Below are positions 164-19,641 of a stretch of DNA of 19,641 nucleotides, piece after piece (within the stretch, counting starts at the first letter, position 1; every line of letters starts with the position of its first letter). This DNA comes from a virus (taxonomy: Duplodnaviria > Heunggongvirae > Uroviricota > Caudoviricetes). Location of the stretch: the IMG/VR virus record IMGVR_UViG_2671181085_000003; one strand, 5' to 3'. The notes beneath the pieces were generated by a model. That model was not told where the DNA came from, did no database searches, and saw nothing but the letters and a program-made list of their open reading frames with translations. The position numbers and the translations under genes are program-made.

Positions 164-167
164 ATTT

Positions 168-1447: not shown

Positions 1448-1457
1448 AAAACGGGAT

Positions 1458-5055: not shown

Positions 5056-5898
5056 ATCTCACACCTCCGGAAATCCCCGCTGAAGCCATCATTAATGCGA
5101 CATCATCCTCGCTGACATCCACCACATCCGCAGAAGGTGAAATATCGCCCCCTCCCTCCCCACCGAACCGGACGCCTCCGGCAAGTCCTGCCGCTTTCTG
5201 CATCAGCATGTCTTCCTCATCCGGCCTCTCCGTCTGCGCTTCCTCACGCCGGGGGACGAGCAGACTGAAATCCGAGGGATGCATATCCGGATCGCAAAAA
5301 AACAGGCTGAGTACGGCGTACGTCAGCCCGGAAAAATGCATATCCAGCTGGGTATCGTGAAAATAATGCGTGCGGTAAAAACGTCGCCAGTCGGCATATT
5401 CGGTGGATGTCATCCCGGCAAGCATGGCTCGCCAGTCGGCTCTCCCCATCTCACGCGCCAGTTTCAGGACAAAGTTCAGCTCGCCTTCGAATGCTTTTTT
5501 GATGTTACCGGCTCAGTCGCTTCTGCTTTCCCGGTTTGTTCAGGATCGGCATCGTGCCGGTTATCCAGCATACCTGAAAGATAAAGCACCCGGTTCGTTG
5601 CCTGATTCAGTGCATCAGCAGGCCATCCCAGCATCACTTCACGGCGGATCTGCTGCATCTCTGTCTCCGGAGAGGCCAGAGTGCCTTTGAGGGAATGGGA
5701 ATGCCATAGCGACATCGCCACAAGCAGGGATGCCGTTTCCAGATATCGCTGGTTAATGTGCACGGCATCATGCTCCGTTGTCTCCTGTTGTGCTGCGTCT
5801 GAAACAAACTTCATATAATCAAACCGCTGCAGCGCAGACAGCTCCGACAGCGTGACGGACACCCCGTTATATTCAAATTGTTCTGTTTTCAGGAACAT
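5036..5898 (-). CDS. T: Tail assembly chaperone G-T fusion, made by programmed -1 ribosomal frameshift
   Basis: The T frame (5036..5512 open) is -1 relative to G and overlaps the G 3' end; slippery heptamer A_AAA_AAG at 5494-5500 (minus strand) sits in the correct register at G codons 134-135. Predicted fusion is about 287 aa. Confidence 0.7.
5476..5898 (-). CDS. G: Tail assembly chaperone G
   Basis: Start at internal ATG (MFLKTEQFEYNGVSVTLSELSALQ...), giving 140 aa, the lambda gpG length; the ORF-track start upstream at 6012 is rejected. Confidence 0.8.
   Translation of the reverse strand: MFLKTEQFEYNGVSVTLSELSALQRFDYMKFVSDAAQQETTEHDAVHINQRYLETASLLVAMSLWHSHSLKGTLASPETEMQQIRREVMLGWPADALNQATNRVLYLSGMLDNRHDADPEQTGKAEATEPVTSKKHSKAS
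5494..5500 (-). other. -1 programmed frameshift slippery heptamer A_AAA_AAG
   Basis: Zero-frame reading TC-A AAA AAG (Ser-Lys-Lys) in G; the -1 frame reads AAA AAA and continues open into T. Confidence 0.65.
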
Positions 5899-5914
5899 GC
5901 TTGATCTCCTCCCC

Positions 5915-6664
5915 TCAGCCCGCAGCGCCATCCGTGACGGTGATCTCCGCCACCGCCGCAAACTCACCGTTGCCGGTGACAACAGGGATCTGCGCTTTAC
6001 CTGCCGCAACACCTTTCACGGTGATCGTGTTCCCTTTCACGGTAATGGTGGCGAAATTCTGATTTGCCGACGTTGCGCGGAATGTTTTATCCGTTGCGCC
6101 TTCCGGCTGAACGGCCACAGTCAGGGTGGTGCTCTGACCTTTTGCCACATTCCCCGTTAGTGGCGTCACGGTAATACCGGTGACCGGTGTGATTTCTCCC
6201 CGATCCTCCGCCAGTGACGGACGACCAATATTGGTGATTTTTACCGTACGGGTGATCACTTCTTTGGCGGTCACCGCTTTACCAATGGCGCTCACCCAGC
6301 CACGGAACACATCCACCGTGCCGTTCGGGAAGCGGATTTTGTAGGCCCGGGTCTCGCTGCTGTCAAACCAGGCAATCAAATCGCGCTGCCCTTTCTCGCC
6401 GGGCTTCCAGGCCAGCGTAAAACTGGTGTCACCGGCGGATTTCTGCCCCTGCCCGGTGGATACCCAGTCAGCATCCTCATCATCCAGATAGTTATCGTCG
6501 TAGGATTCCGCCGTCATCTCGCCGGGGGTCAGATCCTTTATTTTTGCCAGACGCGTCCACTCATCATCTGAGAGCGGGTTTGCATAAGCATCGCCCTTAC
6601 CGGTGTAAACCCAGAGCGTGGTGCCGGAACCTTTTACCGGCGCCAGGGGATTTGGTGTTGCCAT
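5915..6664 (-). CDS. V: Major tail tube protein V
   Basis: 249-aa ORF (lambda gpV is about 246 aa); C-terminal Ig-like (Big_2-type) segment with TVTV/ITV repeats; lambda gene order. Confidence 0.9.
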
Positions 6665-6671
6665 ATCATCC

Positions 6672-7067
6672 TCACATCTCGTATGTAATGGAATAAGTCA
6701 GATCTGCAGAGCTCCACAATGCCATATCGTCATCACGACGATACTCATAGCCCTGCGTAACCAACGTGGTAATCATGCCTGCCAGTGCAGGGATCGCCGC
6801 CATCGCCGGGTAAATCCGGCTTTCCATCCACTGATCAAGCTCTGAATCCGGTACCTGTGCCGGTAAAAACACCTCAATATGCAGTGTGGCCCGCCAGGTA
6901 TCAGCATCCAGCTCTTCACCGGTATACTCTGCATCCGTCAGATAAACCGCGACCGCCGGAAAATCCGCCTCCTCAAAAACAGCGGGGCGACCATCAAACA
7001 GCGTCGCCCCGCTGTCATGCTTCTCCAGTGCATCCAGTACGGCTGCACGGATATCAGTATGTTTCAT
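6672..7067 (-). CDS. U: Tail terminator protein U
   Basis: 131-aa ORF, same length and position as lambda gpU. Confidence 0.85.
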
Positions 7068-7639
7068 CGTTTTATCGCAATCCTCAGTTGTTGTTTCAGC
7101 GCGTATGCCAGTTCTTTGGGCAGGCGTTCACGACGGATACGGTCAACGTTTTCATCAAACGCCTGTTTCAGTGGGGCCGCCATCGGGATTTTCACCACCT
7201 GAATGGGAAGGCGATTACGCTTTTTCCTGCCCTTGTCGTCATTGCCCTCCTCATATCTGGCCTGGGGAAGACGTTGCATAACATGCCAGCGCCCATTATT
7301 TAATCGCTGGATAAATGCCCGCTGATAACGATGCTGACCGGCTTTGAGTATGCTGTCCGGACGACGCCCCAGCATTCTGATCCCCAGCTTAATCACTGGG
7401 AGATCACCGCGGTTAACGATAATTTTTGCATTCGGATTTCTGACCGTGGCCCGTTTCAGTCTGGAGCGTTCCTTAACCAGTTTCCGGCGTACCTTTGTCT
7501 CCCGGGCAACCTGTGATGAAGACTGATTAATCGCCGTTGTGGCCACGCGGTTAATCGTCATTGCTGAAGCCGCCGGAATGGCGTTATTACGAACCCGGCT
7601 CAGATTATCAATCGCCTGATCAAGCCCTTTTATCGCCAT
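7064..7639 (-). CDS. Z: Tail completion protein Z
   Basis: 191-aa ORF between FII and U, as in lambda. Confidence 0.8.
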   Translation of the reverse strand: MAIKGLDQAIDNLSRVRNNAIPAASAMTINRVATTAINQSSSQVARETKVRRKLVKERSRLKRATVRNPNAKIIVNRGDLPVIKLGIRMLGRRPDSILKAGQHRYQRAFIQRLNNGRWHVMQRLPQARYEEGNDDKGRKKRNRLPIQVVKIPMAAPLKQAFDENVDRIRRERLPKELAYALKQQLRIAIKR

Positions 7640-7654
7640 AATTTCACCCTGCGT

Positions 7655-8008
7655 TTATCGTCGCCGGTTAACAGCGGGTGGTTGCCCACGGTTGAGCCAG
7701 AGATAACAGCTTCCCCCGTCATCCGGAGAAACACGATCCACCCAGAACATCTCGCCGTTAATGGTCAGCGTGTCACCACGCCGCACGGCACGCACCGTAT
7801 CCGTCCGCACAAATAATGACGGGCTGCTTCCTTCAATACGGACCCCGCCACCGGCAAAACCCAGCGACTCCGGATCGTCAAAAACCCCCTGAACTTCGCC
7901 GCCACGTTGTGCTCCGGAGGTGAACTGCGCACGGATCCCCATCACTTCAACGATCGTACTGTCCACCCCGGCAAGGGCAGCATCAAAGGCATTCTGAAAA
8001 TCACGCAT
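7655..8008 (-). CDS. FII: Head-tail connector protein FII
   Basis: 117-aa ORF, same length and position as lambda gpFII. Confidence 0.8.
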   Translation of the reverse strand: MRDFQNAFDAALAGVDSTIVEVMGIRAQFTSGAQRGGEVQGVFDDPESLGFAGGGVRIEGSSPSLFVRTDTVRAVRRGDTLTINGEMFWVDRVSPDDGGSCYLWLNRGQPPAVNRRR

Positions 8009-8384
8009 ATTCAGCCGTTCCGTGCTGTATCATGGCCGTTGCCAGTGATGATGGCACCAGAACACGCATACCCCGTAACGCCAGCTCAACGGGACGACCT
8101 GTCTCCGGGCAATACCCCATTACTTGCAGGCACTTCCGTACCCGGACGGCTTTAACATCATCCGGAGCATCCGTGTTGTTCAACTGCTCACCATCGTCTG
8201 TGTGATTTTGATCAGCCCCGCTCTCATCAGAGTGCATAATGCCCTCCGGGGAAACAGCAAGCTCCTCTTCCCACTCAGACACACGTTGAGCAATATCCGC
8301 AGCACTCCCCGACATATCCGCCTCGCGCCCCAGCAGGCCAGCCAGTTCACGAAGACGATTCAGATTTTCTTCTTTTGTTGCCAT
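8001..8384 (-). CDS. FI: DNA packaging / head assembly protein FI
   Basis: Start chosen at ATG 8384 (MATKEENLNRLREL...) preceded by a GGGGG Shine-Dalgarno-like run; the ORF-track start at 8432 is a GTG. Acidic middle region; position between E and FII. Confidence 0.65.
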   Translation of the reverse strand: MATKEENLNRLRELAGLLGREADMSGSAADIAQRVSEWEEELAVSPEGIMHSDESGADQNHTDDGEQLNNTDAPDDVKAVRVRKCLQVMGYCPETGRPVELALRGMRVLVPSSLATAMIQHGTAEYA

Positions 8385-8435
8385 CTCAGCCCCCTGTGAA
8401 AAAAGACACGGGGGCATATCGCCCCCACTCACGGA

Positions 8436-9464
8436 TTATTTCACCTGAACCACCACAAACTCATCCGGATCCGGCAGCACCATCAGCGGAGCGGACTGCG
8501 TCATGGTGAATTCACGGGCCGGATCGCCAACGGTCAGCCAGTGTTTCGGATAACGGGAAGAGGCCACCACACCTTCGGACAACGCCTGCGCATCCTGAAT
8601 GGCACCATAGCAACGGATGCCATCAGCAGCCGTATTTCCCAGGACCAGCGTGCCCTCCGGCAGATAACGTTTTTCGGTACCGTCCTCTGCCACATAAGAC
8701 GTTTTCGCCACCACAATGGCCAGATCGCCGTAATACCCCTTGAAGGACACCACTGCGCCCAGATCTTTCACTGCCGTTTCGAGTTGTGAATTTGAGCCGC
8801 GACGGGTATCCAGTTTTTCGCGGAACAGCTTAAAGCCATTCAGCAGACGCCAGACCGTACCGTCCATAATGGCGATATTCACAAGACCGCTGGCCTGATC
8901 GCAGTAGAGGTCAATATCATGCGTCGGATCAAACGTATCACGGTCCTGCTCAGACCATTTTTTACCGTCAGCCTGCTCAATGTTATTTCCTTCAGAGCGC
9001 CCGAAATCAACCTCGACAGTATCAAACTGCTCCCCTTCCATGGTGTATTTGCCATACAGAACGGCATTCACCGCCTGCATTTCTTCCACCTGGACAATGG
9101 CGTGCTCTTCCTGTTTGAGGTTATCGGTGATGATACGCAGACGACGGTAGGCCGGGTCGTTCAGCTGCGCCGGATCTTCACCGGGAAGGCGCTCCACCGC
9201 CTGCTGGTAATTAAATTCGTGTTTCGGCTTGACGTAGCCCGGACGCAACACGCGGGTTTCACCACCACGATGACGCAGCACTTTTCCTTCAACAACCGGG
9301 GAGACATAGGCTGCCACCGGCGTTTTTCCGGTAATTTTATCCAGCATCACCTCTTCGGTGTGGAAATTCACCGTACGGCGGAAAAACAGCTCCAGAAACA
9401 GCACACGAAATTTCACTTTTTGTTCGGTATAACCGAGTAACTGGCGGGTCGTAAACAATCCCAT
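8436..9464 (-). CDS. E: Major capsid protein E
   Basis: 342-aa ORF; long conserved stretches match my recollection of lambda gpE (GYVKPKHE, EEMQAV, KLDTRRGSNS, ETAVKDLG, GDPAREFTM, QSAPLM, DPDEFV). Confidence 0.95.
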   Translation of the reverse strand: MGLFTTRQLLGYTEQKVKFRVLFLELFFRRTVNFHTEEVMLDKITGKTPVAAYVSPVVEGKVLRHRGGETRVLRPGYVKPKHEFNYQQAVERLPGEDPAQLNDPAYRRLRIITDNLKQEEHAIVQVEEMQAVNAVLYGKYTMEGEQFDTVEVDFGRSEGNNIEQADGKKWSEQDRDTFDPTHDIDLYCDQASGLVNIAIMDGTVWRLLNGFKLFREKLDTRRGSNSQLETAVKDLGAVVSFKGYYGDLAIVVAKTSYVAEDGTEKRYLPEGTLVLGNTAADGIRCYGAIQDAQALSEGVVASSRYPKHWLTVGDPAREFTMTQSAPLMVLPDPDEFVVVQVK

Positions 9465-9521
9465 AAATCAGTTCCTTTCATTCAGAAATCAGTCAGGCCA
9501 ACGCGGTGGCCTGATAACGTG

Positions 9522-9869
9522 TTACGGCAGCGCCACGTGACTCAGGGCTGTGCCGACAAAGGCGTTGGCCTTTTTGTGTTCATCCACACTTTCAGGCCAG
9601 CGGACTGCCTCCGTCGCAAAGGTCCCCGACTTGTAATACGTCAGCACCGTCTCTGTGCCTTCAAGCGGCAGTACCAGTATGCCAACCGCACTACCGGCTT
9701 TCTGTCCGTCCCAGACCACCAGTTTCCCGGTGGCTTCATCCAGCATCAGGGGCGTCAGTGCCGGTGTTGCCTGAGAAATCCCGCTGCTGCCTGTGGCGGT
9801 ATGAGCCGGATCATTACCGGCAAAAATACGTACTTCCGCACGCTGTTCAGTGATGGTTTTCGTCACCAT
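9522..9869 (-). CDS. D: Head decoration protein D
   Basis: 115-aa ORF with DPAHTAT, TPLMLD, WDG, AVGIL and YKSGTF motifs matching lambda gpD. Confidence 0.9.
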   Translation of the reverse strand: MVTKTITEQRAEVRIFAGNDPAHTATGSSGISQATPALTPLMLDEATGKLVVWDGQKAGSAVGILVLPLEGTETVLTYYKSGTFATEAVRWPESVDEHKKANAFVGTALSHVALP

Positions 9870-9904
9870 TTTGTTAAAACCTCATATTGATGTCAGCACT
9901 GACT

Positions 9905-10507
9905 TCATGGCATGGCCATGAGCATTTTCACGTCCGCATCACCGTCTGCTGACGTCTGTGGCACGCCACCCTGCACCGCTGCCGGTGAATAGTTCGCCAT
10001 GAAATGTTCAAACAGGGCGGTTGTGGATGCAGAAACCGGTTCTGCCTTACCTGATCCCGCAGCCAGCACAGCCCGGGCGTTCTCCACGGTCATTCCCGGG
10101 CAGGCCGCCAGTTTTTCAGCCTGCGCCTCAGCCCCTTTTGCCTCATCCAGATCCATAATCTGATCACGGAGTGAGAGCCCGGCATCCGCCCGTGGTGCAG
10201 CCGCCAGGACAGGGCGGGCTTTTTCCACCGTCATCTCCGGCATCGCCGCCAGCGTTGCCGCCAGTTGTTCACGACCTTTCGCTTCTTCACACGCCATAAT
10301 GCGATCGGCTTCACTCTGCGCGGATGCCACCGGCTGCTGCGGTGCTGCCGCGGCCAGAATCGCCCGGGCCTGTTCAACGCTCATGCCCTGTTGTCCTGCC
10401 AGCATCGTGGCAAGCTGTTCACGTCCTTTCGCTTCCTGACACGTCAGGATCCCCATCACTCGCTGGTTCTCCTGCGCGGCAGCTTCCGTTGCGGTTAATT
10501 GCGGCAT
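9905..10507 (-). CDS. Nu3: Scaffolding protein Nu3 (internal in-frame start within C)
   Basis: Internal ATG at 10507 (MPQLTATEAAAQENQRV...) preceded by a perfect AGGAGG Shine-Dalgarno with about 5-nt spacing; in frame with C and sharing its stop, as for lambda Nu3. Confidence 0.6.
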   Translation of the reverse strand: MPQLTATEAAAQENQRVMGILTCQEAKGREQLATMLAGQQGMSVEQARAILAAAAPQQPVASAQSEADRIMACEEAKGREQLAATLAAMPEMTVEKARPVLAAAPRADAGLSLRDQIMDLDEAKGAEAQAEKLAACPGMTVENARAVLAAGSGKAEPVSASTTALFEHFMANYSPAAVQGGVPQTSADGDADVKMLMAMP

Positions 10508-11410
10508 AGTGCCTCCTGTATCATGTGTGTTCAGCGCCGCAGCCATCACGCTGATGGCATCCGACGCATTGATTAATTCATCCGCCAGTCCGGCCTTAAT
10601 ACCGGACTGACCTTCAAAAACGGCAGCCTCTGTCCCCGTGACGGCATCCACAGACAGACCGGTATACATCGCCACTTTTTCGGCAAACATCCGGTGCGCC
10701 GCATCAATCCGCTGCTGCATGTCCTGGCGAACCTCTGACGGCAACGCTTCAAACTGATTGCCATCCACCTTATGCGCCCCGGCATAAATCAGCGTGATAT
10801 CCACTCCGGCCTGCGCCAGATGACCGGCATAGCTGACATGGCCCATCATCACGCCAATGGAGCCGATACGGGATGTCTGGGTAACCAGCCGTCGGGAGCA
10901 GGCCGACGCCAGCAGCATGGCCGCAGAACAGGCCGTGTCATTACACAGTGCCCAGACCGGCTTCTGCTGACGGAGGCGGTAAATCATGTCAGCGCAGTCA
11001 AACGCACCGGCGGCCTGCCCGCCCGGACTGTCAATATCCAGCAGTACGCCCCGGACAGAGGTGTCCGCCATTGCCTGCTGAAGACAGGCAACAATGCCGT
11101 CATAGCCTGTCATTCCGGAAAATGGCCGCATGCCACCCAGCCGGTGCACCAGCGTGCCGGTCACCGGCAGTACAGCAATACCGTTCACCACCCGGTAAAC
11201 ACGGGCCGGTCGTTTACCTCCGGCCATGTACTCGTCCGTTTCAGCCAGCATCCCGGGCGCATCAAGCTGTACCTGCTGTTGTGGTAACGAAAGACTTGCT
11301 GCCCCCATCTCGCGCCCGAGCGCGCAAAAGAAAACCCGCGCATAGGCGGGCTCCAGAAGCAGCGGTTCATTGAATGCTGCGGCAATAATGTGTGAAAGAT
11401 TACGTCTCAC
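9905..11410 (-). CDS. C: Capsid assembly protease C (S49/ClpP-like), with in-frame scaffold region
   Basis: 501-aa ORF; N-terminal AAFNEPLLLEPAYARVFFCAL and the VLPVTGTL, GMTGYDGI, AFDCAD, KPVWAL, RLVTQTSRIGSIGVMM, KVDGN blocks match lambda gpC. GTG start overlapping the B stop. Confidence 0.85.
   Translation of the reverse strand: MRRNLSHIIAAAFNEPLLLEPAYARVFFCALGREMGAASLSLPQQQVQLDAPGMLAETDEYMAGGKRPARVYRVVNGIAVLPVTGTLVHRLGGMRPFSGMTGYDGIVACLQQAMADTSVRGVLLDIDSPGGQAAGAFDCADMIYRLRQQKPVWALCNDTACSAAMLLASACSRRLVTQTSRIGSIGVMMGHVSYAGHLAQAGVDITLIYAGAHKVDGNQFEALPSEVRQDMQQRIDAAHRMFAEKVAMYTGLSVDAVTGTEAAVFEGQSGIKAGLADELINASDAISVMAAALNTHDTGGTMPQLTATEAAAQENQRVMGILTCQEAKGREQLATMLAGQQGMSVEQARAILAAAAPQQPVASAQSEADRIMACEEAKGREQLAATLAAMPEMTVEKARPVLAAAPRADAGLSLRDQIMDLDEAKGAEAQAEKLAACPGMTVENARAVLAAGSGKAEPVSASTTALFEHFMANYSPAAVQGGVPQTSADGDADVKMLMAMP
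10055..10462 (-). repeat. Tandem triplication of a ~40-aa module in the C/Nu3 C-terminal region
   Basis: Three consecutive copies of I-M-x-x-x-EAKG-(R)E-x-x-A-x-x-LA-x-x-x-x-M-(T/S)-VE-x-AR-x-(V/I)-LAA visible in the translation and as repeated DNA. Confidence 0.7.
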
Positions 11411-12992
11411 GTGGTGTTGTCTCCTCTTCCGGCCTGCGGCTCTCCGCTATCTGCTGCTGATACGCCTGCGCTATCCACACCGGACGTGAGAGTCCGGCTT
11501 TTTCCCGCTCTGCGGATTCCCTGACCTGCTGGCGGAAAATGTCCTGATAATCCTCACCCATCAGCGCCAGCTCTTTCTCATACGTGCTCAGTCCGGCCTC
11601 AATGCGCATCACCGATTCCTGGACCTCCTTGAGCCCGTCAATGGCCATTCTTCCTGCGCCAATCCACTCTGCCCGCGACCAGGCTGAACGCGCCTGATAA
11701 AAATCAAAACGTGCCCGTGGCGGACGGATAATCCCCCGAAGAAGTGCCTCTTCCAGCCAGCAGGAAAACATCTGCGTGGCCAGCCGGGCCGCAATAAATT
11801 TTCGTCGTCCCATAAAATAACGCCACGACTCATTGGCGGAGGCGCGGGCACTTGAGTAACTGACCTTCGAGTAATCACGAGACAACTGTTCGTAGGAAAC
11901 GCCAAGACCGGCGGCGATATACCGCAGCAGCGCCTGTTCAAGCGCAGAAAATCCATTGTCTGAATCCTGCGCAGTCTGCAGTTTCAGATCATCCCCGGGG
12001 AAAAGGTGCGGAATTTTGACACCACCCAGCGTCACGTGATTCGTGTCATACCAGCTGGAGAACTTCTCCAGAATATTAATAAGCGGATTATCCTTCTGCT
12101 CCTGTGGCGCGCCGGCGATATATTCAAAGGCCTTTTCGGTATCAAGTTCACTTTCAATCGTCGCTGCATACATCGCCTTCACTATGGCCGACTGAAGCTG
12201 TGTTGCCTGCAGGGAATCGAGCATCTTCAGCCGTTCCATGACGCTGTAAAACTGATTAGCCCCACGGGTCTGCCCGTCCTCCACCGGCTCGAAAATATGC
12301 AGCATGGTCGGACGCCCGGTGGGAAGTTCACGCGGGATCCGTTCCCATCGTCCACTACCAGAGAACGGAAAATCATCCTCACAGATATGGTACGCGACGG
12401 CACGGCCATATCGATCGACCTCCACACCGGCCCGCAGAAAACGGTACCCCATACCGTGTCCAGGCGTGTCCACCCGTTTCGGACTCACGGCTTTAAAACG
12501 CGTACGGAATAACTGCGTGGTTTCCGTATCCCAGACCGGCTGCACAAAGATTTCGCCGTTAAACGCATGAACGCCCACACCTTCACGGATAAATTCCGTG
12601 AACGTGCGTTTTCCTTCCACGTCGATCTCGCCAAACATCCCTTCTGCGTATTCCGACCAGGCCGCCTCCACCTCATCGACAAAACTTTTTGCCGCAGTCT
12701 CCCGCATCCCCAGCCAGCGCCAGTTCGGACGGTAGCTGATCAGAAACATATGCCCGACAATATGATCCTTATGCAGGGCCACCGCATTAGCCGCTATCCC
12801 GTTATTGCGCACCAGATCATCTGCACGGGCATTCCCCAGACGCAACGCGGGCAGCAGGGCCGCATCGGCACTCTGCGAGGGTGGCAACCACTCCGCCATT
12901 TGCCCGCCAAATCCTGCACCGCCCCCGTGGTAGCTGAGACTCTCCCGAAGCGGAACGCCGTTCACATCAATCAGGACAGGCGTTCGTTTCAT
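11400..12992 (-). CDS. B: Portal protein B
   Basis: 530-aa ORF (lambda gpB is about 533 aa) between W and C. Confidence 0.9.
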   Translation of the reverse strand: MKRTPVLIDVNGVPLRESLSYHGGGAGFGGQMAEWLPPSQSADAALLPALRLGNARADDLVRNNGIAANAVALHKDHIVGHMFLISYRPNWRWLGMRETAAKSFVDEVEAAWSEYAEGMFGEIDVEGKRTFTEFIREGVGVHAFNGEIFVQPVWDTETTQLFRTRFKAVSPKRVDTPGHGMGYRFLRAGVEVDRYGRAVAYHICEDDFPFSGSGRWERIPRELPTGRPTMLHIFEPVEDGQTRGANQFYSVMERLKMLDSLQATQLQSAIVKAMYAATIESELDTEKAFEYIAGAPQEQKDNPLINILEKFSSWYDTNHVTLGGVKIPHLFPGDDLKLQTAQDSDNGFSALEQALLRYIAAGLGVSYEQLSRDYSKVSYSSARASANESWRYFMGRRKFIAARLATQMFSCWLEEALLRGIIRPPRARFDFYQARSAWSRAEWIGAGRMAIDGLKEVQESVMRIEAGLSTYEKELALMGEDYQDIFRQQVRESAEREKAGLSRPVWIAQAYQQQIAESRRPEEETTPRET

Positions 12993-13195
12993 AACCTCAC
13001 TCCCAGCGGACGACGGCGACGGCGGGTTGTCCCCAGTACCGACTCCGCATCATTGATCGCACGGTTAAGCTCATCCAGAGAAGCCGCCGTATATTCAATT
13101 CTGCGACCATCTTTCTGGACAGACACCACCCGTTTACCGGTTAATAAATCAAGGCGCGCCTGACGCAGCGCCTGCAGTTCAGCGACTGTAACCAT
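12989..13195 (-). CDS. W: Head-tail joining protein W
   Basis: 68-aa ORF, same length and position as lambda gpW. Confidence 0.85.
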   Translation of the reverse strand: MVTVAELQALRQARLDLLTGKRVVSVQKDGRRIEYTAASLDELNRAINDAESVLGTTRRRRRPLGVRL

Positions 13196-15107
13196 TCACT
13201 CCTCCGGACAGCTTCGCTGCCAGTTCTTTCAGGGTTGGCCGGGTCGTCTCTTCTTCCCGGGATTTTGCCAGTACAGCCAGATCAAGCTGCCAGCGTTGCA
13301 CGGACACACGTAATGCCGCGTAGGCATACACCAGGCAGTCCAGCGCTTCGTTACGCCGCTTTTTGTTATCCCACAGCAGACGCATCTTTCCTTTTTCCCA
13401 CTTCTCCACCAGCTCTTCCGCCACCAGTTGCTGCGCCTCTGTCTGCGAAAAAATCTCCGGATCATCAGGAAAACGGATGGCATACGACGTGGCTTCATCC
13501 GCAGGCGTGGGATCGGCTTTCATACGGGCATAGAGAATTTCTTTTGCAGTGTCCGTCCCCACTTCACACAGATACACGCCCCGCTGATTGCGGGTTTTTG
13601 GCATGGTGATCACCGGCTTGCCATAGACAGATGCGCCTTTTACCGGCAGCACCTGGAAAACACCGTGTTTTTTTGATCTCTGATAAACGATTTCACCATC
13701 GATCCCCCCGGTGTCCCAGCAGACACGGGAAATGGTCATTTCAGTGCCATCCGCATGGCGGTATTTTTTGTTGATCGCCGCATCCACACGTAACAGCGTC
13801 TCTTCCTCATCTGGACGTCCCATAATGATGATTTTATCCACCAGAAAGGCTTCCTCTCCCGGAGCCCATCCCCAGACATACATCTCAAAACGGTTTCGCT
13901 GCGAGTCAATGCCCGCCGTCAGATAAACCACCCGGGCAGGCACCGCCGCCGTGTAACGCACAACCTTATCCATCAGTACCTGGTGATCGAGTTTTTCGCC
14001 CACGGCCTCTTCCCAGGTCTCGCCCAGCGTGGTGTTCACAAAAGTTTTCAGGCCGTTGGGATCTTTCAGTGCATCCAGCCAGTCATAGACTATCTGTACC
14101 CAGGTGGTGAACGGACTGTACGCCGTCCAGATATGGAATGTGATGGAGCGCGGCGGCGGAATTTCATTACCCGCAGCGCTGAAAAACGTCAGACCGTCAC
14201 GGGTCCACATCCCCGTGTTTTCACAGATCCACCGCCCGTTGCTCTGGTCAAGCTCAGACTGATGGATCACGCAGCCATGATGTTCACAGAGGTAGAAAAC
14301 GCTTTCGGGGCTGTCCTTCTCCCATTTAAGGCCAAAAGGCGTGGATTCATCGCCAAATTTCAGATACTGCTCCTCCCCACAGTGCGGGCAGGGCACATAA
14401 AAACGCATGAAATGCGCCGACTCGTTGGCCGCTTTTTCGATCTGGCAGGAACCTTTTATTTTAGGCGTCGAGCCGCGAATGGATTTTGGCCATACAGAGC
14501 CCTCAATACGCTTATCCCCCAGCAGGGTTGGCGAGCCCTCTTTTTCAACATCCGGCTCGAACGAGGAAAGTTCGTCATAGCAGACCACATCCACGGATTT
14601 TTCACGGTAGTTTTTGGCGGCAGCGCCGCCCAGGCACCAGAAACCCACACCCGATGAAAAGCGTTTCAGCGTGAGGGTATTATCACGATGTTTACGTCCC
14701 AGCCAGGGAGAAAGTTTTTTCAGGCAGGGAACATCGCGAATCGTCGCCTCCACGTGAGACTTCATAAAATCTTCAGCGGCAGAATCCGTAGGCTGAAAAA
14801 GCAGACTGTTTCGGGATTTATGCTCAATAAAATACCCGGCGACTCCCAGCAACATCTTTGTATAGCCAACACGGGCAGATTTAATCAGATTAACAGTGCG
14901 GATCTGATCATTCCCCATACTGTTCATGATGGCGATCTGGAACGGCAGCGTTTTCCATTCTCCCTCACCATATGAAGATTCTTTAGGCAGATAATAATTT
15001 TGATCAGCCCATTCAGCTGGCGTCACCGGCAATGCCCTTATCAGGGGCTGTAATGCTGTTGTGACAGCGCTCATCATATTATTCAGTTGTTGCTCTGATA
15101 TATTCAT
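13179..15107 (-). CDS. A: Terminase large subunit A
   Basis: Start chosen at ATG 15107 (MNISEQQLNN...), which overlaps the Nu1 3' end by about 29 nt as in lambda; 642 aa with extended similarity to my recollection of lambda gpA (EWADQNYYLPKES, SARVGYTKMLLGV, CPHCGEEQYLKFGD, HIWTAYSPFTTWVQIV, FVNTTLGETWEE, RNEALDC). Confidence 0.9.
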   Translation of the reverse strand: MNISEQQLNNMMSAVTTALQPLIRALPVTPAEWADQNYYLPKESSYGEGEWKTLPFQIAIMNSMGNDQIRTVNLIKSARVGYTKMLLGVAGYFIEHKSRNSLLFQPTDSAAEDFMKSHVEATIRDVPCLKKLSPWLGRKHRDNTLTLKRFSSGVGFWCLGGAAAKNYREKSVDVVCYDELSSFEPDVEKEGSPTLLGDKRIEGSVWPKSIRGSTPKIKGSCQIEKAANESAHFMRFYVPCPHCGEEQYLKFGDESTPFGLKWEKDSPESVFYLCEHHGCVIHQSELDQSNGRWICENTGMWTRDGLTFFSAAGNEIPPPRSITFHIWTAYSPFTTWVQIVYDWLDALKDPNGLKTFVNTTLGETWEEAVGEKLDHQVLMDKVVRYTAAVPARVVYLTAGIDSQRNRFEMYVWGWAPGEEAFLVDKIIIMGRPDEEETLLRVDAAINKKYRHADGTEMTISRVCWDTGGIDGEIVYQRSKKHGVFQVLPVKGASVYGKPVITMPKTRNQRGVYLCEVGTDTAKEILYARMKADPTPADEATSYAIRFPDDPEIFSQTEAQQLVAEELVEKWEKGKMRLLWDNKKRRNEALDCLVYAYAALRVSVQRWQLDLAVLAKSREEETTRPTLKELAAKLSGGVNGYSR

Positions 15108-15588: not shown

Positions 15589-15635
15589 TCCTCACCTCGC
15601 AAAAACTCTCACCTCACAATCACAACAAAACAGGT

Positions 15636-15735
15636 CATGTCCGGTTCACATGCCCATTTTTTGCGCATGTCCGGTTCACAGAAGACCTGTTTTTATATTT
15701 TTCATATAGTTAACTTGCAGAGAAACCGGACATGG
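15636..15735. promoter_or_regulatory. cosB-like terminase binding region with three R elements
   Basis: CATGTCCGGTTCACA at 15636-15650 and 15666-15680 (direct, 30 bp apart) plus an inverted copy AACCGGACATGG at about 15722-15735, separated by an AT-rich stretch (15681-15720). This mirrors the lambda R1/R2-bend-R3 layout but with different repeat sequence. Confidence 0.65.
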
Positions 15736-15771
15736 ATCCCGGAAAATTTTCATAAATAGTGAAAACCCGCG

Positions 15772-15783
15772 AGGTCGCCGCCC
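15772..15783 (-). other. cosN cohesive-end site
   Basis: Minus-strand sequence GGGCGGCGACCT followed by CGCGGGTTTTC.CTATTTATGAAAATTTTCC, matching the lambda left end as I recall it, lying about 190 bp upstream of Nu1. Confidence 0.85.
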
Positions 15784-16006
15784 CGTAACGGTCTGGATCA
15801 CCGGAAAGGACCCGCCAACGACTTTCGCGTGCAGGCATTAAAAATTTTGCAGTTCCATGCCTAGTTGAAACCTCGATTTCTATAACATCCAATTTTGTAA
15901 ATTTAGATATAGCTCAACTTTTCCCAATGTTTTCAATTGTATAAAAACAATTGGCGTTACGCTATAACACTATACTTAGAATAAGTAAAGATTTTAAGGA
16001 GTTTTA

Positions 16007-17074
16007 ATGAGTCAACATCAATATTATCCACAGCTGAAATGGAAGCCTGCTGAATATGAATCTCTGATGCTTTTAGATCAAACTACGCTCTCTGGTTTTA
16101 CTCCGATCATTACCATTCCAGACATAGACTGGGATTATGAAAACGAATGCTACAAGAAGAGTTTGAGTTCTTACTTATCTGACTTCGGTATTAACCTTGC
16201 GGCATCCTGGAAAGCCAATCGTCCTGTTTTGCTGGATGTTAAATATTTAGATAAACATGGTTCGAGCCGCCATCATCCTCTAGATATGTGTATCCAAGAT
16301 GCTAGAGTAAATGGTAAGGAAATTATCCCTGTTGTTTCTCCCACATATTCAACAAACTATATACATGCTGTTCAACGCAACTTAATCAATGGGCTCGCTA
16401 TATCTATCACCCCCCAGACATGGCACCAATTCACAAGTCTGGTTAACCACTTAAATATTCATCCTAGTTTAATTGATGTAATCATTGATTTTGGAGATAT
16501 TCAAAACGCAACTGATAGTTTAAAACAACAAGCATTAAGCATGGTCAACACATTATCAGGCCAAGCTCCGTGGAGAAACTTGATTTTATCTTCAACCGCA
16601 TACCCGGCATCACAGGCAGGGATACCGCAACATCAAGTTCATCATATTCCGCGCCATGAATACGATCTTTGGATGTACGTAGTACAGAATTTTAGCAATG
16701 GAAGAACGCCAAGTTTTAGTGATTATCCCACCGCTAGCTCTACCATTACGAGCGTAGACCCACGCTTCATGTCTCAGTATGTCTCAGTGAGATATTCGAA
16801 CGATACCTCATGGATCTTTGTAAAAGGTACCGCAGTTAAAGGAAATGGATGGGGCCAAACTAAAAACTTATGTACTACCCTTGTTAGTTCGCCAGAGTAT
16901 CAAGTCTTTGGCTCCAAATTTAGTTGGGGGGATGATTACATTTACCAAAGATCATTAGGCGCTAACAAATCTGGCGGCTCTAAAGAATGGCGTAAAGTTG
17001 CACATACGCACCATATTACGTTAGTCGTGAGACAGCTTTATTGGTTGGCGCAGACTCAGCCTGCCAAGCCTTAA
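16007..17074 (+). CDS. Hypothetical protein, 355 aa, no recognisable motif (accessory island gene 1)
   Basis: ATG preceded by AAGGAG with about 5-nt spacing; about 38% GC in a sample versus GC-rich flanks; opposite strand to all phage late genes. Confidence 0.7.
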   Translation: MSQHQYYPQLKWKPAEYESLMLLDQTTLSGFTPIITIPDIDWDYENECYKKSLSSYLSDFGINLAASWKANRPVLLDVKYLDKHGSSRHHPLDMCIQDARVNGKEIIPVVSPTYSTNYIHAVQRNLINGLAISITPQTWHQFTSLVNHLNIHPSLIDVIIDFGDIQNATDSLKQQALSMVNTLSGQAPWRNLILSSTAYPASQAGIPQHQVHHIPRHEYDLWMYVVQNFSNGRTPSFSDYPTASSTITSVDPRFMSQYVSVRYSNDTSWIFVKGTAVKGNGWGQTKNLCTTLVSSPEYQVFGSKFSWGDDYIYQRSLGANKSGGSKEWRKVAHTHHITLVVRQLYWLAQTQPAKP

Positions 17075-17636
17075 CTTTCCAGCCTACGCGTTTCTTTAAG
17101 GCTGTTCTGACTTCAAGCCTGAGATTCGCCATTGGAATATTTTCCGCAATAATATTCCATAACTCAAATCGGGGCTTGCTTTTGATTCCTTTGGAATAGC
17201 CCCATCGTTCAAGTACGTCGATACATTCATCTTTCCAAAGCAATTGAGCGAGCATCAATGTGTCATGGTTTCGATTAAGCTTTTCTCCACGCATGTGCTT
17301 TATAAGAATGGCGCCTTTTGACCCAACAGAAACCGTTTTAACGCCCCACCAACCTGGGATTAACTTTAATGCTCCCTCAAGATGTTTCTCAGCTACGACA
17401 AGAGTAACCTTGTCCATTACAGAAGAATAATGCTTGATTTGAAGAGGCAAACGCTCCAAAGAGTCATATTCACTTTTGAGCTCGTACCCGTGTATAACAC
17501 CATTTATTACAGCAATGTCTGCTCTACTGGCGCCAAGGGATATGGAAAATTCATCGACCACAAGGCAGTCTGGATCTAAATGCGATTCTTTCAAAAGCTT
17601 ATGATGCACCGCGAACCTAACATCTTGATCTTTCAT
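17016..17636 (-). CDS. Hypothetical protein, 206 aa, predicted PD-(D/E)xK-fold nuclease-like (accessory island gene 2)
   Basis: ATG preceded by AAGGAG with 5-nt spacing; N-terminal region reads CLVVDEFSISLGASRADIAVINGVIHGYELKSE, a hydrophobic-D ... E-x-K arrangement typical of PD-(D/E)xK nucleases. AT-rich. Confidence 0.7.
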   Translation of the reverse strand: MKDQDVRFAVHHKLLKESHLDPDCLVVDEFSISLGASRADIAVINGVIHGYELKSEYDSLERLPLQIKHYSSVMDKVTLVVAEKHLEGALKLIPGWWGVKTVSVGSKGAILIKHMRGEKLNRNHDTLMLAQLLWKDECIDVLERWGYSKGIKSKPRFELWNIIAENIPMANLRLEVRTALKKRVGWKVKAWQAESAPTNKAVSRLT

Positions 17637-17664
17637 GACTTCTCCTTACTCCCTCCGTTATTGA

Positions 17665-17693
17665 ATTATAGCGCACTGCATTTTACTGCATTT
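17665..17693 (-). promoter_or_regulatory. Candidate sigma70 promoter for island gene 2, overlapped by a tandem direct repeat
   Basis: Perfect TATAAT -10 on the minus strand (plus coordinates 17665-17670) about 28 nt upstream of the ATG; -35 is weak; a 10-bp element ACTGCATTT(T) occurs twice in tandem at 17675-17693. Confidence 0.4.
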
Positions 17694-17986
17694 GAGAGAT
17701 TTGACCACTTCAATCACAAAATGCTTATCTGCAGCAACAAGATTCATAGCCATACGACTATGGTGATTACCTTTTGTCTGGAAAACTGACCATTCCACGA
17801 AGATCAGATAGGTCTATAGAATCTTGGTTTGTCATAGCGTTCGCCTTACTTTGAGATGAACCTTTGCTGCATAGGAGATCAGCCCGTCAAGGCTCACCAG
17901 CACTAACTGACTACTCAAAGGCTCATTCCAAAGGGTTTGGTTCGACGTGGTTGAGTGCGCTGCGATGCGCGGTGAAATACCTGTAC

Positions 17987-18014
17987 AAAAATGCCCCGCA
18001 TCTGCGAGGCATTT
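17987..18014 (-). terminator. Hairpin terminator downstream of Rz/Rz1, possibly bidirectional
   Basis: Long inverted repeat AAAATGCC-C-CGCA-TC-TGCG-A-GGCATTTT, A-rich on one side and T-rich on the other, about 40 bp after the Rz stop. Confidence 0.55.
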
Positions 18015-18052
18015 TCCTGAAAGTCACGTATTAAATTTCAGTGAAATTAAAA

Positions 18053-19024: not shown

Positions 19025-19240
19025 TTACTCTCCCCGTGCCGCCTTACGCCGGTCCTCTCTGATTTTGAAATACAGGTTCGTCAGGTACGTCAGCAGACCA
19101 AACAGCAGACTCCCCAGCACGCCTATTGCCGCCCACTGAGACGGGGAAACCCTGTCCAGCAACTGCAGGAACCAGTAGCCCGTTCCCACCGCTGACGTGG
19201 TGTATGACACACCTGTTGTGATTTTTTCCATCTGGTACAT
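19025..19240 (-). CDS. S: Pinholin (phage 21 S-type), dual-start MYQM
   Basis: [15 protein letters not shown]...[51 protein letters not shown] closely matches my recollection of S21; two Met codons three codons apart; GGGAG Shine-Dalgarno. The ORF-track extension to 19333 is rejected. Confidence 0.85.
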
Positions 19241-19349
19241 ACCCCGTCTCCCGCAATCCGGAAGCTCACAACATGAAAAAGGCCGCCAGTGCTCCACTGA
19301 CAGCCTCGTGTAGTTACTCTGAGTGCCCAACAATTCCCTGTCAAACGTG

Positions 19350-19379
19350 TTGACATTAAGAATCGCTTTTGTGTAGAAA
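19350..19379 (+). promoter_or_regulatory. Promoter-like element A (TTGACA-TTAAGAAT)
   Basis: Consensus -35 TTGACA at 19350-19355 with a weak -10-like TAGAAA about 18 nt downstream; the spacer shares (T/A)TAAGAAT with element B. Confidence 0.3.
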
Positions 19380-19423
19380 AATTATGGCATGCATAACAAT
19401 AAAACCTCACAGCCGTACTATTT

Positions 19424-19474
19424 CCACCAGAAGCATGACGCATTTCTCCCTGTGCTTACTGGTGGATTTTTTTT
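19424..19474 (+). terminator. Rho-independent terminator, plus-strand sense
   Basis: Imperfect 12-bp stem CCACCAGAAGCA / TGCTT(A)CTGGTGG followed by a T8 run (19467-19474). Confidence 0.55.
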
Positions 19475-19499
19475 GCCCCGCAAATACCGCTGACACATA

Positions 19500-19530
19500 T
19501 TGACAATAAGAATATTTTTCATTTAAAAAT
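19500..19530 (+). promoter_or_regulatory. Promoter-like element B (TTGACA-ATAAGAAT)
   Basis: Consensus -35 TTGACA at 19500-19505 with an A/T-rich -10-like TAAAAA(T) 18-19 nt downstream; the spacer motif is conserved with element A. Confidence 0.3.
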
Positions 19531-19575
19531 ATTCATGTACAAAAATGTTTCTCTGGAGTGTCCATAGAGCTCACC

Positions 19576-19608
19576 CGCCAGTCCATTCCGGTAACTGGCG
19601 GCTTTTTT
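19576..19608 (+). terminator. Rho-independent terminator, plus-strand sense
   Basis: Stem CGCCAGT / ACTGGCG with an 11-nt loop, followed by a T6 run (19603-19608); no A-run upstream, so it is unidirectional. Confidence 0.65.
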
Positions 19609-19641
19609 ATCATGCCGCAGTGTCTGTGCTGTTCACTTCCA

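What the first reader, a model, noticed from the sequence alone, without database searches (positions are those of the whole stretch)
15800..18050. AT-rich two-gene island between the lysis cassette and cos: candidate uncharacterised defence/abortive-infection module
A ~2.2 kb stretch between the Rz terminator and cosN is visibly AT-rich (about 38% GC in a sample of gene 1) against GC-rich phage genes on both sides. It carries two ORFs with strong Shine-Dalgarno sites: a 355-aa protein with no motif I recognise and a 206-aa protein with a PD-(D/E)xK nuclease-like motif. This slot, between the lysis genes and cos/terminase, is where lambda carries accessory genes such as bor, and is in my recollection a common place for lambdoid prophages to carry morons. 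A nuclease-like protein paired with an unknown partner is a common layout for anti-phage systems. I have a weak recollection that size-matched adjacent pairs are annotated in some genomes as sce7725/sce7726 family proteins, but I cannot verify membership from sequence alone.
Basis: partly seen in the sequence, partly recalled or inferred. Interest (0 to 1): 0.85.

Follow-up and report, generated by a model that had tools for sequence, protein, structure and literature searches.

The report
Prophage beta–cII (sce7726) gene pair
The AT-rich island between the lysis genes and cos of this lambda-like prophage carries a convergent pair of genes, a TIM-barrel "beta" protein and a restriction-endonuclease-like "cII/sce7726" protein. 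Both are the conserved core of two already validated anti-phage systems (P4 Gop-beta-cII and PD-lambda-2), here without the extra toxin genes, so it is a probable but untested defence cassette of a partly known kind.

Summary
A roughly 2.0-kb insert (about 15822-17831, 40% GC against 56% in the structural genes) lies between the Rz terminator and cosN (15772-15783). It holds two real genes with AAGGAG ribosome-binding sites.

- **ORF1 (355 aa):** a full-length Pfam Beta_protein (phage P4 beta). The model is a confident but orphan TIM barrel.
- **ORF2 (206 aa):** an NCBIfam sce7726 / PADLOC "cll" (P4 cII) protein. It has a PD-(D/E)xK fold and an invariant E29, D40, E52-x-K54 motif.

ORF1 is not a member of the sce7725 family. 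No gop, HigB or HTH-peptidase partner is present.

Across 91 unique pairs from many phyla and phages, beta and sce7726 are almost always convergent neighbours. Their 3' ends overlap in 88 of 91 pairs. Every one of 49 viral contigs found through beta also carries sce7726. Gop (P4) and HigB plus HTH-peptidase (PD-lambda-2) are add-ons placed upstream of beta.

My verdict is a new variant, the bare two-gene core, of a known and mechanistically unsolved defence family, sitting in a variable moron slot. The most likely working is a nuclease effector restrained or licensed by the faster-evolving beta protein. That mechanism is inferred, not shown.

The parts
15772..15783 (-). cosN cohesive-end 12-mer of the host prophage. 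This is context and marks the left limit of the slot.
   Evidence: Exact single match to GGGCGGCGACCT, with 0.01 matches expected by chance. The flanking sequence reads like the lambda left end (the lambda sequence is from my own knowledge).
15822..17831 (.). AT-rich inserted island (moron), 40.3% GC.
   Evidence: Composition. The left border is where homology to about 1155 other E. coli genomes' nu1-cos ends. The right border is where homology to the sequence downstream of Rz in P22 and other phages begins. The whole island is present in 126 of 5426 complete E. coli genomes.
15903..16006 (+). Conserved upstream region of the beta gene. It holds promoter-like GTATAAAA, CGCTATAAC and TATACT elements and an AAGGAG ribosome-binding site at 15996-16001.
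   Evidence: Sequence similarity with the Edwardsiella, Klebsiella, Pantoea and Pectobacterium cassettes starts about 105 nt upstream of the ATG and is lost beyond that. Sequence read. Promoter function is inferred.
16007..17074 (+). ORF1, a beta-family protein (355 aa) with an orphan TIM-barrel fold. It is transcribed against the direction of the phage late genes.
17016..17074 (.). 59-nt overlap of the two convergent 3' ends. It encodes the conserved C-terminal helix of beta on one strand and the disordered, non-conserved tail of ORF2 on the other. There is no room for an intergenic terminator.
   Evidence: ORF coordinates. ORF2 residues 188-206 have pLDDT below 50 and are absent from most homologues. 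88 of 91 unique beta/sce7726 pairs overlap, with a median overlap of 50 nt.
17016..17636 (-). ORF2, an sce7726 / P4-cII-family protein (206 aa): an N-terminal PD-(D/E)xK nuclease fold plus a C-terminal helical domain. It runs in the same direction as the phage late genes.
17637..17725 (-). Conserved upstream region of ORF2. It holds AAGGAG at 17647-17642, TATAAT at 17670-17665, and the direct repeat AAATGCAGT-A-AAATGCAGT at 17693-17675, which is a candidate operator.
   Evidence: Conserved across five enterobacterial genera for about 85-90 nt upstream of the ATG, with no similarity beyond. A promoter-like site was found in the scan. The 46-aa ORF at 17658-17798 is not conserved, so it is not a third gene.
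17988..18015 (-). Rz terminator hairpin of the host phage. This is context and marks the right limit of the slot.
   Evidence: 13-nt inverted repeat, 92% complementary, followed by a T-run (repeat I7).

Best explanation
The island is a self-contained, horizontally acquired two-gene cassette. It is the bare beta/cII (sce7726) core of the family that includes P4 Gop-beta-cII and PD-lambda-2, carried as a moron in the Rz-cos slot of a lambdoid prophage. It most likely protects the lysogen against other phages.

Proposed working, inferred rather than shown:
- The PD-(D/E)xK protein ORF2 is the DNA-cutting effector.
- The fast-evolving TIM-barrel protein beta senses infection and restrains or licenses the nuclease. 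It does this either by binding it or through an enzymatic activity of its acidic barrel pocket.
- The obligatory convergent, 3'-overlapping transcription of the two genes couples their expression levels, so that each transcript is antisense to the other.
- A phage trigger, or disturbance of this balance during infection, frees the nuclease and aborts or excludes the infection.

What is shown here: family membership, the folds, the intact catalytic motif, conservation of the pair and its layout, and the variability of the slot. What is inferred: the defence phenotype of the two-gene form, which protein is the effector, and the antisense coupling.
For: Homology:
- ORF1 is Pfam Beta_protein and matches PADLOC PD-Lambda-2_C and beta. 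ORF2 is NCBIfam sce7726 and PADLOC cll.
- The beta-then-convergent-cII layout is the same as in P4.

Published function:
- gop-beta-cII protects against lambda and P1 (PMC9122126).
- It is triggered to kill by phage orf184 (bioRxiv 10.1101/2023.04.06.535777).
- The PD-lambda-2 beta-like component C is required for defence (PMC9519451).

The pair is an obligate unit:
- 78 of 80 genome loci found through sce7726 have a convergent beta gene.
- 49 of 49 viral contigs found through beta have a convergent sce7726 gene.
- Pairwise identities of the two proteins correlate at r=0.90.

The bare pair is common. About half of the loci, including all the enterobacterial ones, have no co-directional neighbour. 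Others carry HigB plus HTH-M78 peptidase, HTH-S24 peptidase or coiled-coil proteins upstream of beta.

Protein-level support:
- Beta evolves faster than the nuclease (27.7% against 41.2% median identity; the nuclease is more conserved in 97.8% of locus pairs). That is what one expects of a sensor or antitoxin-like partner.

Moron character:
- AT-rich insert in a variable slot with its own conserved upstream regions.
- The same slot is used in a Klebsiella-type prophage that has a different terminase and endolysin.
- Other slots are used in phage Rac-SA53 and in Gordonia phages.
Against: - No experiment exists for a two-gene beta/cII form.
- In P4 the known toxic protein is Gop, which is absent here: tblastn finds nothing in the window or in 135 other loci.
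- In PD-lambda-2 the toxic protein is the HTH-peptidase, also absent here.
- The published PD-lambda-2 clone extends only 396 bp beyond beta. Beta can therefore act in defence without an intact sce7726 gene, which weakens the idea that the nuclease is the effector.
- The P4 gene name cII comes from a clear-plaque (lysogeny) phenotype (my recollection of Ghisotti 1990; the paper could not be read).
- sce7726-like genes occur without beta in hundreds of lytic Staphylococcus and Bacillus phages, so the nuclease also has uses other than defence.
- Beta keeps an enzyme-like set of acidic residues (E16, D77, D161, D239), which a pure binding sensor would not need.
- Promoter and antisense regulation rest on consensus matches and gene geometry only.
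Confidence: 0.55

Rival explanations
1. It is a restriction-modification-like pair. The TIM-barrel beta protein modifies DNA, or a DNA precursor, to mark self. The sce7726 nuclease cuts unmodified incoming DNA. The convergent layout controls the timing of the two activities, as it does in many type II R-M systems.
For: - The convergent gene order and an intact PD-(D/E)xK nuclease whose closest structural matches include many restriction enzymes.
- Beta has an enzyme-like acidic pocket.
Against: - The DpdA and TGT hits are no better than hundreds of unrelated TIM barrels. The top hit is a designed barrel and Foldseek E-values are only about 1e-4.
- P4 beta is reported to neutralise Gop, and PD-lambda-2 needs beta for defence in a clone lacking an intact sce7726 gene. 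Neither is expected of a modification enzyme.
- Beta evolves faster than the nuclease, which is unusual for a methylase-like partner.
Confidence: 0.1
2. It is a selfish addiction (toxin-antitoxin-like) module. It stabilises the prophage or simply spreads as a cassette, and gives the host no meaningful protection against phages.
For: - The cassette is compact (about 1.8 kb), carries its own upstream regions, and is found in unrelated flanking contexts across genera.
- It is frequently associated with classical toxin-antitoxin parts such as HigB and HTH-peptidase.
- gop/beta is described as toxin-antitoxin-like.
Against: - Both characterised relatives gave real phage resistance.
- It sits in prophage moron slots next to the lysis and packaging genes and in the P4 defence hotspot.
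- The convergent, separately transcribed layout is unlike a type II toxin-antitoxin operon.
Confidence: 0.15
3. The pair serves the phage's own life cycle, or acts as counter-defence, rather than protecting the host. Possible roles are lysogeny control, DNA processing or recombination, breakdown of host DNA during lytic growth, or destruction of a host immune signal by the TIM-barrel enzyme.
For: - The P4 cII gene was named for a lysogeny phenotype (my recollection).
- ORF2 lies in the late-transcript direction directly after the Rz terminator. Q-antiterminated transcription would therefore raise ORF2 expression and run antisense to beta during lytic growth (geometry).
- sce7726-like genes are widespread in strictly lytic myoviruses.
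- The closest solved structure belongs to an MmcB-like DNA-repair family.
Against: - The pair is common in chromosomal loci with toxin-antitoxin-like neighbours, in phyla as distant as Patescibacteria and Acidobacteria.
- It is non-essential and only patchily present: 126 of about 1155 E. coli genomes that carry this nu1-cos region.
- Its relatives have been shown to act against other phages.
Confidence: 0.15

Closest known systems
Gop-beta-cII of satellite phage P4 (DefenseFinder/PADLOC 'gop_beta_cll'; Ghisotti 1990; Rousset 2022)
   Same: - Homologous beta (both 355 aa; 22% identity; same Pfam family) and cII (27% identity, catalytic motif kept).
- Same beta-then-convergent-cII arrangement.
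- Both lie next to cos in a variable cargo slot of a mobile element.
   Different: - No gop gene: no ORF of the right size upstream of beta and no tblastn hit.
- The 3' ends overlap by 59 nt, whereas P4 has a 27-nt gap with an annotated terminator.
- ORF2 lacks the roughly 60-aa C-terminal extension of P4 cII.
- The carrier is a lambdoid prophage, not a satellite.
- PADLOC scores are far below those of P4's own proteins: 37.6 against 621 bits for beta, and 108 against 376 bits for cll.
PD-lambda-2 (Vassallo 2022, E. coli ECOR42)
   Same: - ORF1 scores better against the PD-Lambda-2_C models (109.6 bits) than against the P4 beta model.
[quoted passage not shown]
- Natural PD-lambda-2-type loci also end with a convergent sce7726 gene (19 of 80 loci; L036 confirmed with the PADLOC A, B, C and cll models).
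   Different: - The HigB-like component A and the HTH-M78 peptidase component B are absent from the window.
- The published system was defined as three genes without sce7726.
sce7725/sce7726 gene pairs (NCBIfam NF033831/NF033832)
   Same: ORF2 is a clear sce7726-family member. Genome papers list the two families as neighbours.
   Different: - ORF1 gives no hit to the sce7725 model. Neither do ten other beta proteins, including those from myxobacteria.
- The partner here is the Pfam Beta_protein family. I could not establish how sce7725 relates to beta.
Lambda morons in the Rz-cos interval (for example bor)
   Same: Same interval of a lambda-type genome, deviant base composition, own expression signals, and variable content between related prophages.
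   Different: The cargo is unrelated. bor is a single lipoprotein gene for serum resistance, whereas this is a two-gene nuclease and TIM-barrel cassette.

Membership tests
NCBIfam NF033832 sce7726 family (ORF2) | Whole-protein score at or above the curated cut-off (70 bits), with a full-length match | tested here: met
   185.7 bits, E 7.5e-55, residues 1-183 on profile positions 1-182 of 184.
NCBIfam NF033831 sce7725 family (ORF1) | A match to the family model | tested here: not met
   No hit at E<=1 for ORF1. No hit at E<=0.01 for ten other beta proteins.
Pfam PF14350 Beta_protein (ORF1) | Score above the gathering threshold (27 bits), full-length | tested here: met
   190.4 bits, E 7.8e-56, residues 6-342 on 1-342 of 342.
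Gop-beta-cII defence system | A beta homologue is present | tested here: met
   PADLOC beta 2.7e-10. Same Pfam family as P4 beta. BLASTP against P4 beta 2e-7 over the full length.
Gop-beta-cII defence system | A cII homologue is present, convergent to beta | tested here: met
   PADLOC cll 2.2e-31. BLASTP against P4 cII 9e-19. The layout matches P4.
Gop-beta-cII defence system | A gop homologue sits upstream of beta in the same operon | tested here: not met
   No ORF of 70 aa or more lies between cos and beta. tblastn with P4 Gop finds nothing better than E 0.68 in the window.
Gop-beta-cII defence system | Confers resistance to phages (lambda, P1) and is toxic when triggered | not testable with these tools
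   Needs plaque and toxicity assays.
PD-lambda-2 defence system | Component C (beta-like) is present | tested here: met
   PADLOC PD-Lambda-2_C 4.3e-32 and 2.2e-25.
PD-lambda-2 defence system | Component A (HigB-like) and component B (HTH plus M78 peptidase) lie upstream of C | tested here: not met
   No such ORFs in the island. They are readily detected in the 19 loci that do have them.
PD-(D/E)xK (restriction-endonuclease-like) nuclease superfamily (ORF2) | The core alpha-beta-beta-beta-alpha-beta fold | tested here: met
PD-(D/E)xK (restriction-endonuclease-like) nuclease superfamily (ORF2) | Catalytic D...(D/E)-x-K residues are present and conserved | tested here: met
   D40, E52, K54 and E29 are invariant in 98 of 98 unique relatives and are kept in P4 cII.
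PD-(D/E)xK (restriction-endonuclease-like) nuclease superfamily (ORF2) | Metal-dependent nuclease activity | not testable with these tools
   Needs a biochemical assay.
A specific TIM-barrel enzyme family (ORF1) | A fold or sequence match that stands out from generic (beta/alpha)8 barrels | tested here: inconclusive
Type II toxin-antitoxin operon | Co-directional, co-transcribed toxin and antitoxin genes | tested here: not met
   The genes are convergent, each with its own upstream region.
Lambdoid moron | A non-essential insert in a late-region gap, with deviant composition and patchy presence among related phages | tested here: met
   40% against 56% GC. Present in 126 genomes, against about 1155 that carry the same nu1-cos. 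Related prophages hold other cargo in the slot.

The most novel reading that the evidence does not exclude
The convergent, 3'-overlapping beta/sce7726 pair is itself an autonomous and ancient immune module. It pairs an orphan TIM-barrel enzyme with a PD-(D/E)xK nuclease whose expression is coupled by obligatory antisense transcription. Gop (P4) and HigB plus HTH-peptidase (PD-lambda-2) are interchangeable add-ons bolted onto this core. On this reading, PD-lambda-2 as published lacks its natural fourth gene, and current defence-system finders miss the commonest form of the family, the bare pair. There are at least 4,392 beta clusters at 50% identity.
Probability: 0.35. Interest if true: 0.65.

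Novelty: new variant of a known kind. Interest (0 to 1): 0.45.

Why it matters
Gop-beta-cII and PD-lambda-2 are validated anti-phage systems with no known mechanism, and they have been treated as unrelated three-gene systems. This window shows their shared parts, beta and a cII/sce7726 nuclease, standing alone as a compact cassette in a lambdoid prophage.

The comparative data show that this pair is the conserved core across many phyla. The gene geometry (convergent, 3' ends overlapping) is kept in 88 of 91 unique pairs. That gives a minimal two-gene system in which to ask three questions: what the TIM-barrel beta protein senses or catalyses, whether the nuclease is the effector, and whether convergent transcription is part of the switch.

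As I recall their rules, defence finders require gop or the PD-lambda-2 A and B components. If so, they under-count this family. That point is a recollection and was not tested.

Tried and rejected
- **Third gene in the island.** Small ORFs flank the pair, for example 46 aa at 17658-17798. Similarity to the Edwardsiella, Klebsiella, Pantoea and Pectobacterium cassettes stops about 85-105 nt upstream of each start codon, so these ORFs are not conserved. Gop gives no tblastn hit.
- **sce7725 membership of ORF1.** Rejected.
- **Solved relatives of ORF2 by sequence.** None. Only the fold-level match exists.
- **Rfam families in the window.** None at gathering score.
- **Intrinsic terminator between the genes.** None is possible because the ORFs overlap. 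Folding the overlap region shows ordinary hairpins without T-runs.
- **Literature on mechanism.** Searches for sce7726, sce7725, PF14350, gop-beta-cII and 'beta family protein' found only the three functional papers cited and incidental genome annotations. One apparent hit (PanDA, '2TM-beta family protein') is unrelated. Ghisotti 1990 could not be read.
- **Native PD-lambda-2 locus.** I could not check whether the ECOR42 locus has an sce7726 gene, because that contig is not in the searchable collections.
- **Locus L011** (Xenorhabdus koppenhoeferi). It has sce7726 with no trace of beta, a single exception that I did not follow up.
Full report
**1. What is in the sequence**

The window is the late region of a lambda-like prophage read on its minus strand. 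In order it holds holin, lysozyme and Rz (19333-18053), then the island, then cos, the small terminase subunit (15588-15079), the large terminase subunit, and the head and tail genes.

The lambda cohesive-end 12-mer GGGCGGCGACCT occurs once, at 15772-15783 on the minus strand, where 0.01 matches are expected by chance. Downstream of Rz there is a terminator hairpin at 17988-18015.

Between these landmarks the GC content falls. Every 400-nt window from 15601 to 17800 is at or below 0.445, and no window in 1-14600 is below 0.495. The insert borders can be placed by homology:
- The nu1-cos region is shared with about 1155 complete E. coli genomes, and that similarity ends at window position 15815-15821.
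- The sequence downstream of Rz that is shared with P22-like and other phages begins at about 17832.

The insert 15822-17831 is 40.3% GC, against 55.9% for the structural genes.

It holds two ORFs, each behind an AAGGAG ribosome-binding site: 16007-17074 (+, 355 aa) and 17016-17636 (-, 206 aa). They are convergent and their 3' ends overlap by 59 nt. The whole island is present at 98.9-99.9% identity in 126 of 5426 complete E. coli genomes. There NCBI's annotation already names the genes 'beta family protein' and 'sce7726 family protein'.

**2. What the two proteins are**

ORF1 is a full-length member of Pfam PF14350 Beta_protein (7.8e-56), the family named after the beta protein of satellite phage P4. 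It also matches phrog_9159 and the PADLOC models PD-Lambda-2_C (4.3e-32) and beta (2.7e-10). It does not match NCBIfam sce7725.
- Its AlphaFold model, built on 33 homologues, is confident (pLDDT 94.3, pTM 0.92).
- The model is a (beta/alpha)8 barrel with a helical C-terminal extension.
- In 87 unique relatives with a median 28% identity, the residues Y6, P8, E16, P33, D77, P108, D161, P200, R216, D239, Y240, Y263, W328 and H336 are each kept in at least 93% of sequences.
- D77, D161 and D239 lie at or just after the predicted strands 74-77, 156-164 and 236-238, and E16 lies just after strand 9-11. That is where TIM-barrel enzymes place their catalytic residues. Beta therefore looks like an enzyme of an orphan family. 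This is an inference.
- The family is large: 4392 clusters at 50% identity reach E<=1e-3, and nearly all are single-domain proteins of about 355-370 aa.

ORF2 is a member of NCBIfam sce7726 (185.7 bits against a cut-off of 70). It also matches PADLOC 'cll', the P4 cII protein (2.2e-31), and is 27% identical to P4 cII over its whole length.
- Its model has pLDDT 88.8. The last 19 residues are disordered.
- The N-terminal domain has a restriction-endonuclease-like fold, followed by a small helical domain.
- E29, D40, E52 and K54 are invariant in 98 of 98 unique relatives.

**3. Relation to known systems**

P4 carries gop (133 aa), beta (355 aa) and cII (264 aa). The first two are co-directional and cII converges on them. 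Published results:
- Rousset et al. showed that gop-beta-cII protects against lambda and P1. They cite Ghisotti 1990 for Gop being toxic without beta (PMC9122126).
- Silas et al. found that phage orf184 triggers cell death through this system.
- Vassallo et al. found PD-lambda-2 in E. coli ECOR42: a HigB-like component A, an HTH-peptidase B that is toxic when over-expressed, and a 'P4 beta-like' component C that is needed for defence against lambda-vir (PMC9519451).

The window has beta and cII only. There is no ORF of useful size between cos and beta. P4 Gop finds nothing in the window, with a best E of 0.68. The small ORFs in the flanks are not conserved in the closest cassettes from other genera.

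**4. The pair is the conserved unit**

I first scanned one genome per species with the sce7726 profile. This returned 80 loci from Proteobacteria, Firmicutes, Bacteroidota, Acidobacteria, Nitrospirota, Elusimicrobiota, Patescibacteria and others. In 78 of them a beta-family gene converges on the sce7726 gene. One exception is cut off by a contig end. The other, L011, has no trace of beta.

I then ran the reverse test on viral contigs, using beta as the query. All 49 loci carry a convergent sce7726 gene. The same layout is seen in Escherichia phage Rac-SA53 (54% and 30% identity, in the nin region), in Gordonia phages DumpsterDude and Powerball (after the lysis cassette), and in a Mycolicibacterium phage.

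Over 91 unique pairs:
- The 3' ends overlap in 88, with a median overlap of 50 nt.
- Pairwise identities of the two proteins correlate at r=0.90.
- Beta is the faster-evolving partner: median identity 27.7% against 41.2%, with sce7726 more conserved in 97.8% of locus pairs.

In the window, the overlap pairs the conserved C-terminal helix of beta with a disordered, non-conserved tail of ORF2. The closest relatives in other genera overlap by only 11 nt. What is conserved is therefore the tight convergent packing with no room for an intergenic terminator, not a particular overlap sequence.

What lies upstream of beta varies:
- Nothing, in about half the loci, including all the enterobacterial ones.
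- HigB plus HTH-M78 peptidase in 19 loci. For L036 these were confirmed as PADLOC PD-Lambda-2 A, B and C (1e-40, 2e-150, 3e-40), followed by a convergent 'cll' gene (2e-22).
- HTH-S24 peptidase, coiled-coil proteins or unknown proteins in a few loci.
- Gop, only in P4.

So the bare pair in this window is the commonest natural form, and the two published three-gene systems are elaborations of it. The published PD-lambda-2 clone extends only 396 bp beyond the beta end. An sce7726 gene there, if present, would have been truncated.

**5. The slot**

Related E. coli prophages with the same nu1-cos region carry different cargo between Rz and cos: YlcI/YnfO plus PerC, a TonB-family gene, or DUF1398. 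A Klebsiella-type prophage has a 77%-identical cassette in the equivalent place, between endolysin/holin and a different small terminase subunit. The orientation is the same, with sce7726 co-directional with the late genes.

The cassette that moves is about 1.8 kb (window about 15903-17725). It includes about 105 nt upstream of beta and about 85-90 nt upstream of sce7726. The latter region has a perfect TATAAT and a conserved direct repeat, AAATGCAGT-A-AAATGCAGT, which could be an operator.

**6. How it most likely works**

What is shown: family membership, the folds, the intact nuclease motif, the obligate pairing and its geometry, the moron character of the insert, and the anti-phage function of two relatives.

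What is inferred: this two-gene form protects the lysogen against other phages. The nuclease is the effector, and beta restrains or licenses it. Three observations support a sensor or antitoxin-like role for beta:
- It evolves faster than the nuclease.
- It is reported to neutralise Gop in P4.
- It is required for defence in PD-lambda-2.

In this model the convergent overlapping transcription ties the two expression levels together.

The geometry has one further consequence. Late transcription of the prophage itself would read ORF2 in sense and beta in antisense, so the balance between the two should shift on induction.

I put 0.55 on the defence reading, and clearly less on the individual mechanistic steps. 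The main counter-evidence is as follows:
- The two-gene form has not been tested.
- The known toxic parts (Gop, and the HTH-peptidase of PD-lambda-2) are absent here.
- Beta worked in a PD-lambda-2 clone without an intact sce7726 gene.
- Beta looks like an enzyme rather than a mere binder.
- sce7726-like genes occur without beta in hundreds of lytic Staphylococcus and Bacillus phages.

The rivals are an R-M-like pair (0.10), a purely selfish addiction module (0.15) and a phage life-cycle or counter-defence function (0.15).

**7. Novelty and score**

Both families are named, and both are components of validated defence systems. It is a new variant of that kind: the bare beta/sce7726 core in a lambdoid prophage.

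The comparative result has some value because the mechanism of the whole family is unknown. That result is that the convergent pair, not the published three-gene sets, is the conserved unit, and that PD-lambda-2-type loci carry sce7726 as a fourth gene.

Interest is 0.45. It would rise to about 0.65 if the pair proves to be autonomous and the antisense coupling is real.

Noticed in passing
window 15636-15650, 15666-15680 (+) and about 15727-15737 (inverted): The sequence CATGTCCGGTTCACA is repeated twice in direct order, and a partial inverted copy (AACCGGACATG) lies between the nu1 start and cosN. The position and spacing fit the cosB terminase-binding R sites of lambda-type phages.
   Followed up: partly
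window 17693-17675 (-), upstream of ORF2: The direct repeat AAATGCAGT-A-AAATGCAGT sits immediately upstream of a perfect TATAAT (17670-17665). It is conserved in the Edwardsiella, Klebsiella, Pantoea and Pectobacterium cassettes while the surrounding sequence is not, which makes it a candidate operator for an unknown regulator. The beta upstream region shares a CGCTATAA(C/T) element with it (15960-15968).
   Followed up: partly
L036 5001-8122; also L044, L048, L049, L053, L056-L058, L061, L064, L065, L069, L071-L073, L079, L080, L082, L083: PD-lambda-2-type operons (HigB-like A, HTH-M78 peptidase B, beta-like C) are followed by a convergent, overlapping sce7726 gene in 19 of the 80 genome loci. 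The published three-gene PD-lambda-2 clone stops 396 bp beyond beta, so it may lack a natural fourth component.
   Followed up: partly
phage records found (for example Staphylococcus phages vB_SscM-1 and UHP46; Bacillus phages Moonbeam and phiNIT1): Weak sce7726-like matches (about 26-29% identity over 60-70% of ORF2) occur in about 241 Staphylococcus and 33 Bacillus phage records, mostly large lytic myoviruses. The beta search found only 7 phage records, so the nuclease family also exists without beta.
   Followed up: no
L002 247-648 (P4 gop): P4 Gop reads like a small membrane protein, with two hydrophobic N-terminal segments followed by a coiled-coil-like tail. It has no Pfam match and no homologue in any of the 135 other loci. 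The 161-166-aa coiled-coil ORFs upstream of beta in L052 and L063 might be functional analogues.
   Followed up: no
L011 5001-5567 (Xenorhabdus koppenhoeferi): This is the only locus with room downstream where sce7726 has no beta partner and no beta remnant detectable by tblastn.
   Followed up: partly
L004 3956-4633 (Gordonia phage DumpsterDude): The sce7726 homologue (E 1e-68 to the profile) is not annotated in the GenBank record. A 71-aa gene (gene 32) is called on the opposite strand instead.
   Followed up: no
window 19201-19641: GC drops to about 43% upstream of the holin gene at the right edge of the window, presumably the late promoter and Q-dependent region. I did not examine it.
   Followed up: no
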